Virus record (IMG/VR): IMGVR_UViG_2690316142_000010
Reading direction: 5' to 3' (one strand)
DNA: 6,883 nucleotides
From: a virus
Lineage: Duplodnaviria; Heunggongvirae; Uroviricota; Caudoviricetes
Numbering within the stretch: the stretch's first letter is position 1; every line of letters starts with the position of its first letter. The notes below the pieces were generated by a model. The model worked only from the letters and a program-made list of their open reading frames with translations. It was not told the origin of the DNA and made no database searches. Positions 355 through 626 of the stretch are shown here, piece by piece. A program made the translations under genes and the position numbers.

Positions 355-384
355 TTGACAGTTTTTGTTCTCCGGGGCTATATT
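355..384 (+). promoter_or_regulatory. Candidate sigma70 promoter: -35 TTGACA (355-360), 18-bp spacer, -10 TATATT (379-384), preceded by an A/T-rich UP-like tract
   Basis: Consensus -35 hexamer and 5/6 match -10 read directly from sequence; upstream T/A tracts (about 250-354). Spacer of 18 bp is slightly longer than optimal. No experimental or computational score available. Confidence 0.45.
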
Positions 385-445
385 CCTCACACAACCGCAA
401 AATCGGTTGTCGGGATTGGCGTCTCGGATAACATCACAACGCATA

Positions 446-466
446 GCCGCGTTTGCGGTTTTTTTT
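446..466 (+). terminator. Terminator-like hairpin (GCCGC-GTTT-GCGG) followed by a T8 run, about 60-75 nt downstream of the promoter; possible attenuator or 3' end of a short leader RNA
   Basis: Short GC stem (4-5 bp incl. one G-U) plus 8 consecutive T (459-466). Stem is short for a canonical intrinsic terminator, hence low confidence. Confidence 0.3.
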
Positions 467-565
467 GCGTTAAGCATTGCCACATTCGCATTATGGTGGG
501 GCGTGCAGGGGCGGAGAAATCCGCGCCGGGTTTTGTGATGACCGGTTACGCCAACCCTGTACGTC

Positions 566-599
566 TCACCACCTCCCTGATTGGCGTCAGAGGTGGTGA
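566..599. promoter_or_regulatory. Perfect 10-bp inverted repeat TCACCACCTC / GAGGTGGTGA separated by 14 nt in the 5' leader of the Rha-like gene; candidate RNA hairpin or protein operator
   Basis: Arms at 566-575 and 590-599 are exact reverse complements. 5' arm resembles the anti-SD end of 16S rRNA (CACCUCC), 3' arm is SD-like (GAGGUG). Function is inferred. Confidence 0.3.
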
Positions 600-602
600 T
601 CA

Positions 603-616
603 TCCAATTAATTGGA
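603..616. promoter_or_regulatory. 14-bp perfect palindrome TCCAATTAATTGGA overlapping the Shine-Dalgarno (GGAG 614-617) of the Rha-like gene; candidate operator or translational control element
   Basis: Exact palindrome read from sequence, ending inside the ribosome-binding site 9 nt upstream of ATG 627. Confidence 0.3.
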
Positions 617-626
617 GTCATCACAT

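What the first reader, a model, noticed from the sequence alone, without database searches (positions are those of the whole stretch)
355..626. Promoter plus long structured leader upstream of the Rha-like gene
A near-consensus promoter (TTGACA-18-TATATT) sits ~240 nt upstream of the Rha-like start codon. The intervening leader contains a terminator-like hairpin with T8 (446-466), a GNRA-capped hairpin (GCGGA-GAAA-TCCGC, near 523-536), a perfect 10-bp inverted repeat whose arms mimic anti-SD and SD sequences (566-599), and a 14-bp perfect palindrome overlapping the SD (603-616). Both long ORFs in this stretch look non-coding. This resembles an attenuator, riboregulator or short RNA controlling the regulator gene, or an operator-rich control region.
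Basis: partly seen in the sequence, partly recalled or inferred. Interest (0 to 1): 0.6.

Follow-up and report, generated by a model that had tools for sequence, protein, structure and literature searches.

The report
IsrK–C4 antisense RNA switch before Rha
The "structured leader" is an unannotated copy of a well-known phage RNA immunity module: a short decoy RNA (IsrK) followed by a processed antisense RNA (C4) that most likely blocks the ribosome site of the Rha regulator gene. It is an ordinary member of a known family, wrongly annotated as a protein.

Summary
Together they form an IsrK–C4 RNA immunity module of the P1/P7 immI, P4 and Gifsy-1 type.

Rfam finds isrK at 391-465 (72 bits, cut-off 50) and C4 antisense RNA at 489-576 (76 bits, cut-off 45).

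- The promoter (355-384) and the T8 terminator bound a ~75-nt IsrK-like RNA that carries target copies a1 and b1.
- The GNRA hairpin is hairpin 1 of C4.
- The 5' arm of the "10-bp inverted repeat" is the 3' strand of C4's closing stem.
- C4's two single-stranded elements match a2 (581-587) and b2 (617-625). b2 lies between the Shine-Dalgarno GGAG and the Rha ATG.

Across 46 distinct family variants these recognition sequences change together with their four targets at fixed positions, and the stems show compensatory changes.

RefSeq calls the 355-630 ORF an "ash family protein". It shows no codon periodicity, and the Pfam Ash model is effectively a translation of these RNA genes.

No expression data exist for this locus, so the mechanism is inferred from homologues: C4 represses Rha translation and IsrK counteracts it. 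The 14-bp palindrome is lineage-specific and unexplained.

Verdict: new member of a known kind, low interest.

The parts
355..384 (+). Sigma-70 promoter of the module: -35 TTGACA 355-360, -10 TATATT 379-384, predicted start about 391
   Evidence: 11 of 12 matches, 18-nt spacer. The -10 A, A and T are invariant in 48 homologues. The Rfam isrK match begins at 391.
391..466 (+). IsrK-like small RNA, equivalent to the P4 seqA region and P1 a1b1. Hairpin H1 is 391-397/404-410. Hairpin H2 is 411-415/422-426 with a1 (TTGGCGT, 416-422) at its tip. b1 is CATCACAA at 432-439. The intrinsic terminator is 445-460 plus T8 at 459-466.
   Evidence: Rfam isrK: 72.2 bits, cut-off 50. Rfam c4-a1b1 at 378-430: 43.8 bits, cut-off 46.7. 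H1 and H2 are 94% paired over 48 sequences, with 7 pairs changed on both sides. Terminator.
489..576 (+). C4-type antisense RNA; the mature form is predicted at about 495-573 by analogy with P1. Closing stem 494-510/555-571. Hairpin 1 at 511-524 with a GAAA loop. Hairpin 2 at 525-546, with recognition loop b' at 530-541 (pairing core TGTGATGAC, 534-542). Single-stranded a' at 547-554 (ACGCCAA, 548-554).
   Evidence: Rfam C4: 75.9 bits, cut-off 45, full length. 97.9% of cells paired over 47 sequences; all 5 pairs of hairpin 1 covary. P1 c4 ends are taken from the P1 annotation.
566..599 (+). Conserved alternative hairpin: the 3' strand of the C4 stem (566-575) pairs with the downstream arm (590-599), with a2 at the tip. 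The arm can alternatively pair with b2 and the start region (616-630).
   Evidence: I3, 10 of 10. Duplex energies are -19.3 against -11.5 kcal/mol. An equivalent hairpin enclosing a2 is present in 46 of 46 variants, P1 included.
579..588 (+). Target a2 (GATTGGCGTC; core TTGGCGT at 581-587), an exact direct repeat of the a1 segment at 414-423.
   Evidence: D2, I2, I4. It lies 7 nt past the C4 end, as in the rest of the family.
603..616 (+). 14-bp perfect palindrome TCCAATTAATTGGA. As RNA it forms a 5-bp hairpin whose 3' arm carries part of the SD. It is specific to this lineage.
   Evidence: Absent from the closest relatives L090 and L099.
614..629 (+). Rha ribosome-binding region: SD GGAG 614-617, target b2 GTCATCACA 617-625 (perfect 9-nt complement of C4 534-542), ATG 627-629.
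   Evidence: I5. b2 abuts or overlaps the SD or start codon in most family variants.
493..630 (+). Equivalent of Gifsy-1 orf45: 45 codons starting at the ATG inside the C4 5' strand. Its stop TGA (628-630) overlaps the Rha ATG as ATGA.
   Evidence: Same length and same overlap as in Gifsy-1 (PMC4825925). No codon periodicity.
627..1184 (+). Rha-family regulator gene (185 aa), the controlled gene. It occupies the slot held by antirepressor or derepression genes in related modules.
   Evidence: Pfam Phage_pRha 95.3 bits; TIGR02681. PHROG transcriptional-regulator and anti-repressor families.
355..630 (+). 91-codon ORF annotated in RefSeq as 'ash family protein'. Judged not to be a protein gene: it is a conceptual translation of the two RNA genes.
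   Evidence: Its TTG start codon is the first three bases of the -35 hexamer, upstream of the predicted transcription start.

Best explanation
Window 355-630 is an IsrK–C4 RNA immunity module that controls translation of the Rha-family gene.

Shown by sequence and comparison:
- One promoter drives a transcript whose first ~75 nt (IsrK-like) carry two short sequences, a1 and b1, and end in an intrinsic terminator.
- Read-through transcripts continue into a C4-type structured RNA.
- After C4 come second copies of the same two sequences: a2, and b2 lying between the Shine-Dalgarno sequence and the ATG of Rha.
- C4 exposes two single-stranded elements, a' and b', complementary to a1/a2 and b1/b2.

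Inferred from P1/P7, P4 and Gifsy-1:
- C4 is cut out of the precursor. RNase P would make the 5' end at about G495, inside the ATG of the small overlapping ORF.
- C4 accumulates and pairs with a2 and b2 on other transcripts. This blocks ribosome binding to Rha and probably makes the mRNA prone to Rho termination.
- Terminated IsrK carries the same target sequences. It titrates C4, or the C4 segment of the precursor, and so switches Rha on.
- On unprocessed transcripts, translation of the 45-codon ORF (493-630, ATGA overlap) can deliver ribosomes to the Rha start.
- A local hairpin (arm 592-599 with b2, palindrome inside) keeps the Rha ribosome site closed by default.

The a sequence is identical to that of Gifsy-1. 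The b sequence is different, which gives this module its own specificity.
For: - Rfam matches above the curated cut-offs for isrK and C4, in the right order and on the right strand. The same pair of matches occurs in Gifsy-1, VT2-Sakai and P4.
- Perfect complementarity in the window: b' 534-542 with b2 617-625 (9 nt) and with b1 432-439 (8 nt); a' 548-554 with a1 and a2 (7 nt each, 90% over 10 nt).
- Order and spacing match the annotated P1 a1-b1-c4-a2-b2 layout.
- In 46 distinct a'/b' combinations, each C4's own (cognate) targets match it over 7.0-8.2 nt of perfect complementarity. Targets from other loci (non-cognate) match over only 4.0-4.6 nt. The cognate matches fall at fixed offsets.
- Structural covariation: C4 97.9% paired, with 114 cells changed on both sides against 35 in shuffles. 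IsrK hairpins 94.1% paired.
- b2 abuts or overlaps the SD or start codon in most variants. The first downstream gene is Rha, ORF6N (AnrP), Bro-N, P4-epsilon-like or Icd, all of the antirepressor or derepression kind.
- Experiments on the Gifsy-1 homologue (PMC4825925): isrK promoter read-through makes the anrP mRNA; compensatory mutations G28/C162 and G31/C159 prove a pairing that maps onto a1 and a', and those bases are identical in the window; IsrK supplied in trans activates translation; a stable processed RNA, STnc1160, covers the C4 region.
- PMC3632133 names the 'IsrK-C4 immunity system' in P4, P1, P7, N15 and lambdoid prophages.
Against: - There are no expression, processing or reporter data for this locus.
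- The cassette sits in a decayed prophage next to a truncated ompW and may be idle.
- The window's own complementarities are short and not significant by duplex-energy shuffles.
- The c4-a1b1 model scores just under its cut-off (43.8 against 46.7).
- The published models differ in emphasis. In P1, C4 is a translational repressor. In Gifsy-1, IsrK is an activator acting through orf45 translation, and over-expressing the C4 region there did not relieve toxicity. The sign and weight of each interaction here are therefore inferred.
- The ATGA-type coupling is seen in only 2 of 46 variants.
- Rha has not been shown to be an antirepressor.
- The palindrome at 603-616 and a window-specific alternative IsrK fold are not explained by the family model.
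Confidence: 0.77

Rival explanations
1. The region encodes a real protein, the 91-aa 'ash family protein' annotated by PGAP, and the hairpins are incidental.
For: RefSeq annotates CDS WP_001296031.1 over window 355-630. Pfam Phage_ASH scores 53.8 bits against a cut-off of 26. The frame is open for at least 100 nt upstream of the C4 ATG in 31 of 46 variants, and runs in frame into Rha in many of them. In Gifsy-1 the orf45 part can be translated when IsrK is over-produced.
Against: - The TTG start is the -35 hexamer itself, upstream of the predicted transcription start.
- There is no codon periodicity: entropy by codon position is 0.58/0.48/0.48, against 0.78/0.51/1.20 in the adjacent Rha gene.
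- C4 length varies from 84 to 90 nt in steps that are not multiples of three.
- The phase between the C4 ATG and the downstream gene is 0, 1 or 2 in different variants.
- Changes in hairpin 1 are compensatory for RNA pairing.
- The Pfam Ash model matches the translation of P4 8330-8704. That stretch is the isrK-like seqA region plus the CI/C4 RNA gene. The true P4 epsilon protein hits a different family.
- The Gifsy-1 authors themselves report that the orf45 nucleotide sequence is conserved while its amino-acid sequence is not.
Confidence: 0.03
2. The module is an inert relic. The sequence is intact only because the prophage remnant is young and clonally inherited, and it regulates nothing that matters to the cell.
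For: The surrounding prophage is heavily decayed: truncated ompW, tail-fibre fragments, IS elements, a partial invertase. In E. coli the cassette is either at least 99% identical or much more distant (435 records at 99% or more, 12 at 95-99%). Its conservation therefore says nothing about selection.
Against: Every functional element is intact: promoter at 11 of 12, terminator, all C4 stems, all four target sites with perfect cores, a full-length Rha ORF, and the ATGA overlap. It is one of the few intact genes in the remnant. [quoted passage not shown]
Confidence: 0.1
3. Control is mainly transcriptional, as in P4, or by simple attenuation. The decision would be termination against read-through at the T8 terminator, or at a Rho site downstream, set by C4 pairing or by an alternative IsrK fold, rather than by occlusion of the Rha ribosome site.
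For: In P4 the homologous CI RNA causes premature transcription termination through seqA and seqC (as summarised in PMC4825925, and PMC3632133). In this window only, the 5' end at 393-401 is a perfect 9-nt complement of the terminator 3' strand (452-460). The resulting alternative fold is 3.5 kcal/mol more stable than the three-hairpin fold.
Against: b2 lies exactly between the SD and the ATG, which points to translational occlusion as in P1. The antiterminator-like complement is present in 1 of 46 variants, so it is not a family feature. Folding 391-444 as it would form during transcription gives H1 and H2, which leaves the terminator free to form. The two mechanisms are not exclusive: in P1 translational repression leads to Rho termination (my knowledge of Biere, Citron and Schuster 1992).
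Confidence: 0.05
4. The 14-bp palindrome at 603-616 is a DNA operator for a dimeric regulator, for example Rha itself or a prophage repressor, rather than an RNA element.
For: It is a perfect, AT-centred 14-bp palindrome immediately upstream of the Rha start, and it is not part of the family consensus.
Against: It lies about 210 nt downstream of the only promoter found, which is a poor place for an operator. As RNA it nests neatly inside the arm:b2 helix and buries the SD. No second copy exists in the window, even allowing one mismatch. There are no intermediate relatives in which to test its conservation.
Confidence: 0.05

Closest known systems
Salmonella Gifsy-1 isrK–orf45 (STnc1160)–anrP locus (Hershko-Shalev et al. 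2016, PMC4825925)
   Same: - Same order of parts: promoter, IsrK with terminator, C4-like region, gene start.
- About 74% nucleotide identity over the leader.
- Identical a sequences (TTGGCGT / ACGCCAA).
- The same 45-codon ORF starting in the C4 5' strand and ending in an ATGA overlap with the regulator gene.
- The same C4-3'-strand:GGTGGTGA hairpin around a2.
   Different: - The b specificity differs: window loop GUUUUGUGAUGA with b2 GTCATCACA, Gifsy-1 loop UCGGUGAU with b2 ATCACCG.
- The controlled protein is Rha-family here and ORF6N-family (AnrP) there.
- The window has an extra 14-bp palindrome and a longer gap from arm to b2.
- There is no antiterminator Q gene upstream. The cassette sits at the edge of a decayed prophage next to ompW.
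Phage P1/P7 immI operon: c4 antisense RNA, icd, ant1/ant2 (Citron and Schuster 1990; P1 annotation NC_005856)
   Same: - The layout a1-b1-c4-a2-b2, with b2 at the ribosome site of the first gene.
- The same C4 fold and the same 14-nt 5' strand, TTATGGTGGGGCGT.
- a' lies in the 3' internal loop and b' in the loop of hairpin 2.
- A hairpin plus T-run follows b1.
   Different: - P1 places a small gene, icd, between b2 and the antirepressor, and ant translation depends on it. In the window b2 sits directly on the Rha start.
- P1 has a C1 operator on the c4 promoter; none is evident here.
- The recognition sequences are unrelated (P1 a' CUGUCAA, b' UCACUAAC).
Satellite phage P4 immunity: seqA – CI RNA (seqB) – seqC
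   Same: The Rfam isrK and C4 models hit P4 at 8615-8692 and 8420-8507 in the same order. The literature equates seqA with IsrK and CI with C4 (PMC3632133; PMC4825925). The translated P4 region is what the Pfam 'Ash' family models.
   Different: In P4 the outcome is premature transcription termination of the replication operon. The downstream genes are kil/eta/epsilon/alpha rather than a Rha regulator. P4-like variants in my sample are followed by a ~76-aa epsilon-like derepression protein.
isrK + c4 pairs upstream of BRO-N genes in APSE phages of Hamiltonella (PMC7313666)
   Same: Both Rfam families sit together, with a'/b' matching the non-coding region upstream of an adjacent antirepressor-like gene.
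   Different: Different host clade and a different regulated protein family; there are no experiments.

Membership tests
C4 antisense RNA (Rfam RF01695; P1/P7 c4, P4 CI) | Match to the covariance model above the curated cut-off, over the full length | tested here: met
   489-576, 75.9 bits against a cut-off of 45, model positions 1-87 of 87.
C4 antisense RNA (Rfam RF01695; P1/P7 c4, P4 CI) | Long closing stem enclosing two hairpins, supported by compensatory changes in relatives | tested here: met
   27 pairs; 97.9% of cells paired in 47 sequences. All 5 pairs of hairpin 1 and 3 pairs of the closing stem change on both sides. Slid controls reach only 38-48%. The 5' strand could not vary in this sample, because the loci were collected with that 14-mer.
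C4 antisense RNA (Rfam RF01695; P1/P7 c4, P4 CI) | Two exposed elements, a' and b', complementary to two target pairs on the same transcript: a1/b1 upstream and a2/b2 downstream | tested here: met
   Window: a' 548-554 with 416-422 and 581-587; b' 534-542 with 617-625, and 533-540 with 432-439. Family-wide, cognate matches are 7.0-8.2 nt and non-cognate 4.0-4.6 nt, at fixed offsets.
C4 antisense RNA (Rfam RF01695; P1/P7 c4, P4 CI) | b2 covers the ribosome-binding site of the first downstream gene | tested here: met
   b2 at 617-625 lies between GGAG (614-617) and ATG (627). b2 abuts or overlaps the SD or start codon in most of the 46 variants.
C4 antisense RNA (Rfam RF01695; P1/P7 c4, P4 CI) | Excised from a longer precursor by RNase P to give a stable RNA of about 77 nt | not testable with these tools
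   Ends of 495 and 573 are predicted only by alignment with the annotated P1 c4.
C4 antisense RNA (Rfam RF01695; P1/P7 c4, P4 CI) | The controlled gene is an antirepressor or derepression function | tested here: inconclusive
   The gene is Rha-family and also hits PHROG anti-repressor families. Sister modules control ORF6N, Bro-N, epsilon-like and Icd genes. No Rha protein of this type has been shown here to act as an antirepressor.
IsrK (Rfam RF01394) / c4-a1b1 (RF03163) / P4 seqA | Match to the covariance models above the cut-offs | tested here: met
   isrK at 391-465 scores 72.2 bits against 50, which is met. The overlapping c4-a1b1 match at 378-430 scores 43.8 against 46.7, just under the cut-off.
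IsrK (Rfam RF01394) / c4-a1b1 (RF03163) / P4 seqA | Own sigma-70 promoter and intrinsic terminator defining an RNA of about 75 nt, with read-through giving the mRNA | tested here: met
   This is met at the sequence level only: promoter and terminator, and the terminator conserved in 45 of 46 variants. The transcripts themselves were not observable.
IsrK (Rfam RF01394) / c4-a1b1 (RF03163) / P4 seqA | Two 5' hairpins, the second presenting a1, supported by covariation | tested here: met
   11 pairs; 94.1% paired in 48 sequences, with 7 pairs changed on both sides. Slid controls reach 33-52%.
IsrK (Rfam RF01394) / c4-a1b1 (RF03163) / P4 seqA | Hfq binding and activation of the downstream gene when supplied in trans | not testable with these tools
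   Shown only for Gifsy-1 (PMC4825925).
Ash protein family (Pfam PF10554) | Match to the profile HMM above the cut-off | tested here: met
   53.8 bits against a cut-off of 26, residues 9-83.
Ash protein family (Pfam PF10554) | Evolves and is expressed as a protein: conserved reading frame, codon periodicity, and a start codon inside the transcript | tested here: not met
   No periodicity. Length changes are not in threes. The phase to the next gene is variable. The start codon lies in the -35 hexamer. The profile matches translated RNA genes of P4.
Classical transcription attenuator (terminator/antiterminator leader) | A conserved alternative structure that competes with the terminator | tested here: not met
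   A 9-nt complement to the terminator 3' strand exists in the window (393-401 / 452-460) but in only 1 of 46 family variants.

The most novel reading that the evidence does not exclude
The cassette may be a domesticated, stand-alone RNA immunity unit kept in an otherwise dead prophage. Its C4 RNA shares its a' sequence with Gifsy-1-type modules and has its own b' loop (GUUUUGUGAUGA). It could act in trans to silence the antirepressor genes of incoming phages or satellites that carry matching a2/b2 sites. Its IsrK decoy and Rha protein could conversely trigger resident prophages. The window-specific extras, the 14-bp palindrome burying the SD and an IsrK fold that competes with the terminator, would then be adaptations that re-tune the switch for chromosomal life.
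Probability: 0.12. Interest if true: 0.5.

Novelty: new member of a known kind. Interest (0 to 1): 0.22.

Why it matters
For the finding itself, little changes. It is one more copy of an RNA switch described for P1/P7 (1990), P4 and Gifsy-1 (2016), and Rfam models recognise it.

Three practical points follow.

1. About 440 complete E. coli genomes carry this exact cassette annotated as an 'ash family protein' with no RNA genes. C4-like elements occur in 2028 of 5426 complete E. coli genomes, often hidden inside 'ash' ORFs or N-terminally extended 'Rha' ORFs.
2. The Pfam Ash family appears to model translated RNA. It is used in the literature as a protein marker, as P4 epsilon in PMC8628076 and as an 'Ash domain' of Rha proteins in Stx phages in PMC8951638.
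3. The 46 natural a'/b' specificities with matching targets form a ready-made set of orthogonal RNA repressor/target pairs. They also offer a way to predict cross-immunity among prophages.

Tried and rejected
- tRNA/tmRNA scan: nothing found.
- Duplex-energy shuffles for the window's own a'/b' targets: not significant for the leader sites. I relied on family-wide covariation instead.
- Column-wise pair counting of the hairpin that encloses a2: not run, because the P1-type rows align in a different register. It was replaced by per-sequence folding.
- Search for intermediate E. coli relatives to test conservation of the palindrome: hits are either at least 99% identical or below 90% and lacking that segment, so this was uninformative.
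- Protein-coding reading of 355-630 (Ash): considered seriously because of the Pfam and PGAP calls, then rejected.
- Minus-strand 124-aa ORF (250-624): no family match.
- Translational coupling through an ATGA overlap as a general family feature: only 2 of 46 variants have it, so it is a Gifsy-1/window trait and not a defining one.
- Operator or LexA-box reading of the promoter region: no convincing site seen by eye; this was not tested with a tool.
- The primary P4 paper (PMC176756) could not be read. Statements about P4 rest on secondary citations and my own knowledge.
- A first version of the ORF script ran into an endless loop and was rerun.
- The large protein database searches and structure prediction were not used, because the question was settled at the RNA level.
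Full report
**What is in the sequence.** I read the window and checked each item in the finding.
- The promoter TTGACA-18-TATATT lies at 355-384. It matches 11 of 12 consensus positions and is the only such site in 1-1400.
- The terminator-like hairpin at 445-460, with eight T at 459-466, is found by the same scan.
- The perfect 10-bp inverted repeat is at 566-575 / 590-599.
- The 14-bp palindrome TCCAATTAATTGGA is at 603-616 and overlaps the GGAG at 614-617, which precedes the Rha ATG at 627.
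- The 255-nt leader folds much better than shuffled versions (z = -4.3).

**Identification.** A search against Rfam gave three matches on the + strand inside the finding:
- isrK, 391-465: 72.2 bits, cut-off 50.
- C4 antisense RNA, 489-576: 75.9 bits, cut-off 45, full length.
- c4-a1b1 target motif, 378-430: 43.8 bits, just under its cut-off of 46.7.

The same isrK-then-C4 pair is found in three other elements:
- Salmonella phage Gifsy-1, upstream of anrP.
- Stx phage VT2-Sakai, upstream of ant.
- Satellite phage P4, where it corresponds to seqA and the CI RNA.

The leader is about 74% identical to the Gifsy-1 and Stx-phage leaders. The GNRA hairpin is hairpin 1 of C4. The 5' arm of the 10-bp repeat is the 3' strand of C4's closing stem.

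**Anatomy compared with P1.** The P1 record annotates a1, b1, c4, a2, b2 and icd in that order. Reading the P1 sequence shows which parts of c4 recognise them:
- a1/a2 (TTGACAG) pair with the 3' internal loop of c4.
- b1/b2 (GTTAGTG) pair with the loop of hairpin 2.
- b2 covers the icd ribosome site.

The window has the same plan:
- a' (ACGCCAA, 548-554) pairs with a1 (TTGGCGT, 416-422) and a2 (581-587). The ten bases GATTGGCGTC are an exact direct repeat at 414-423 and 579-588.
- b' (TGTGATGAC, 534-542, in the loop of hairpin 2) pairs perfectly with b2 (GTCATCACA, 617-625). Its overlapping octamer at 533-540 pairs with b1 (CATCACAA, 432-439).
- b2 fills the space between the SD GGAG and the Rha ATG.

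**Is this more than chance?** For the single locus, duplex energies against shuffled targets are not convincing (p about 0.14-0.29 for the leader sites). These are 7-9-nt matches, so I tested the family instead.

I scanned the viral contig collection with the conserved 14-mer of the C4 5' strand. This gave 92 parsable C4 loci with 46 distinct a'/b' combinations. I then compared each C4 with its own flanks and with the flanks of other loci, measuring the longest perfect complement:

| Pair | Own locus (nt) | Other loci (nt) |
|---|---|---|
| a' with a2 | 7.07 | 4.04 |
| a' with a1 | 7.02 | 4.11 |
| b' with b2 | 8.15 | 4.60 |
| b' with b1 | 7.02 | 4.48 |

The cognate sites fall at nearly constant offsets, and the window fits them: a2 at +7 and b2 at +44 after the C4 end, a1 at -75 and b1 at -59 from the start of the 14-mer. 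The window's combination was unique in this sample.

Within the RNAs, the C4 fold is 97.9% paired over 47 sequences. All five pairs of hairpin 1 and three pairs of the closing stem change on both sides. The two 5' hairpins of IsrK are 94.1% paired, with seven pairs changed on both sides. A hairpin plus T-run follows b1 in 45 of 46 variants.

**The 10-bp inverted repeat.** In all 46 variants, P1 included, the 3' strand of the C4 stem can pair with a downstream arm to form a hairpin with a2 at its tip. Compensatory cases are visible: CTCGCC pairs with GGCGAG in L112, and the CCTGCC/GCAGG pairing occurs in P1. This is a conserved alternative to the C4 closing stem, not an anti-SD/SD mimic.

In the window the arm (590-599) has a second possible partner, b2 and the start region (-11.5 kcal/mol, against -19.3 with the C4 strand). 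In the minimum-energy fold of the whole leader, C4 is folded and the arm pairs with b2. The palindrome hairpin nests inside that helix, which buries the SD. I infer that this keeps Rha translation off by default.

The palindrome itself is missing from the closest relatives, L090 and L099. No intermediate E. coli relatives exist in which to test it. It is a lineage-specific addition of unknown weight.

**What the module controls.** The gene at 627-1184 is a Rha-family regulator and also hits PHROG anti-repressor families. In sister modules the first gene after b2 is one of the following:
- a Rha-family gene;
- an ORF6N gene (the Gifsy-1 AnrP type);
- a Bro-N gene;
- a P4-epsilon-like derepression protein;
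- P1 Icd.

All are antirepressor-type or derepression-type functions.

**Mechanism.** This is taken from homologues and marked as inference for this locus.

In P1, C4 is cut from the precursor by RNase P and represses icd/ant translation by pairing at a2/b2. That is my knowledge of Citron and Schuster 1990 and later papers, and the P1 annotation agrees.

In Gifsy-1 (PMC4825925):
- The isrK promoter drives anrP transcription by read-through.
- The read-through mRNA is translationally silent.
- IsrK supplied in trans activates translation 100-fold or more.
- Compensatory mutations G28/C162 and G31/C159 prove a helix. By my mapping this helix is a1:a', and those bases are identical in the window.
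- A stable processed RNA, STnc1160, covers the C4 region.

The authors also describe orf45, which starts at the ATG in the C4 5' strand and ends in an ATGA overlap with anrP. The window has exactly this arrangement: ATG 493 to TGA 628-630, 45 codons.

By alignment with P1, RNase P would cut between U494 and G495, inside that ATG. If so, C4 maturation and orf45 translation would exclude each other on any one transcript (inference).

My reading is that C4 represses Rha by occluding its ribosome site. IsrK, which carries the same target sequences, acts as a competitor that relieves repression. Barquist et al. [quoted passage not shown] APSE phage genomes show the same pair upstream of a Bro-N gene (PMC7313666).

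**The coding rival.** RefSeq annotates 355-630 as an 'ash family protein', and Pfam Phage_ASH matches it at 53.8 bits.
- The ORF's TTG start is the first three bases of the -35 hexamer.
- C4 lengths vary from 84 to 90 nt, not in multiples of three.
- The phase between the C4 ATG and the next gene is 0, 1 or 2 in different variants.
- Variation shows no codon periodicity: 0.58/0.48/0.48 bits at codon positions 1/2/3. The adjacent Rha gene gives 0.78/0.51/1.20 in the same 13 genomes.
- The Ash profile matches, end to end, the translation of P4 8330-8704. That stretch holds the isrK-like seqA region and the CI/C4 RNA gene. The real P4 epsilon protein matches a different family.
- One PHROG family (phrog_995) aligns the Rha protein to its positions 101-300 and the translated C4 region to its positions 53-92. 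Many phage 'Rha' ORFs are therefore called with the RNA region fused on.

I conclude that the Ash 'domain' is a translation of the RNA genes. Only the short orf45 part may be transiently translated, and its peptide sequence is not conserved.

**Context.** The cassette lies at the edge of a decayed prophage inserted in ompW, next to the trp operon. The rest of the window holds tail-fibre fragments, a duplicated methyltransferase gene interrupted by an IS110-type transposase fragment, and an invertible tail-fibre segment. The exact cassette is present in about 440 of 5426 complete E. coli genomes. C4-like elements of all kinds occur in 2028 of them, with up to 7 per genome. No expression data were available for this locus.

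**Verdict.** The element is a new, unannotated member of a well-known family with its own b specificity. It carries two lineage-specific oddities: the palindrome, and an IsrK fold that competes with the terminator. Interest is low.

Noticed in passing
window 355-630; L125 (phage P4) 8330-8704: The Pfam family Phage_ASH (PF10554) seems to model a translation of the isrK/seqA and C4/CI RNA genes rather than a protein. It matches the P4 RNA-immunity region end to end, while P4 epsilon hits PF25738. The region shows no codon periodicity. Published work uses PF10554 as the P4 epsilon marker (PMC8628076) and as an 'Ash domain' of Rha proteins in Stx phages (PMC8951638).
   Followed up: yes
window 393-401 and 452-460: The 5' end of the IsrK-like RNA (AACCGCAAA) is a perfect 9-nt complement of the terminator 3' strand. 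The long-range fold is -24.0 kcal/mol, against -20.5 for the canonical three-hairpin fold. Only this lineage has it, 1 of 46 variants. It could be an antiterminator conformer or chance.
   Followed up: partly
L009, L011, L013, L014, L094 and other Rha-type loci from the scan: In many relatives the frame of the C4 ATG is open for 160-576 nt upstream and continues in frame through the whole Rha gene, giving ORFs of 227-240 aa from that ATG. phrog_995 contains such fused models. I did not resolve whether the absence of stop codons is selected or merely follows from RNA conservation.
   Followed up: partly
window 1639-1842, 3134-3337 (- strand); weaker at 4183-4262 and 6048-6237: Rfam 'IS009' matches (129 and 111 bits; cut-off 117) lie inside repeated fragments of tail-fibre-assembly genes. 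The 'RNA family' here probably reflects conserved coding sequence of tfa genes.
   Followed up: no
window 1576-1903 and 3071-3398 (spacing 1495); third partial copy at 4120-4237: A direct repeat of about 1.5 kb duplicates the tfa fragment and the start of a class I SAM methyltransferase gene. The copy at 1922-2488 has a divergent 3' end that overlaps an IS110-type transposase fragment (2305-3012, - strand). The copy at 3417-4085 is intact.
   Followed up: no
window 4284-4490 (-), 4694-5991 (+), 6020-6863 (-): A partial Pin-type recombinase gene lies next to two opposed tail-fibre tip and assembly gene sets, with a 159-nt inverted repeat (5458-5616 / 6389-6547, 71%). This is the remnant of an invertible host-range segment.
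   Followed up: no
window 30-167 (- strand): A C-terminal fragment of ompW lies directly upstream of the module. The prophage remnant is inserted in ompW beside trpA.
   Followed up: no
L070 7026 and 7895: One viral contig carries two C4 genes of different specificity 870 nt apart: a' TAACGCCAA with b' GTTCGGTAGTCT, and a' TATTTCCAC with b' GTTCTATGTTGA. This suggests tandem immunity modules.
   Followed up: no
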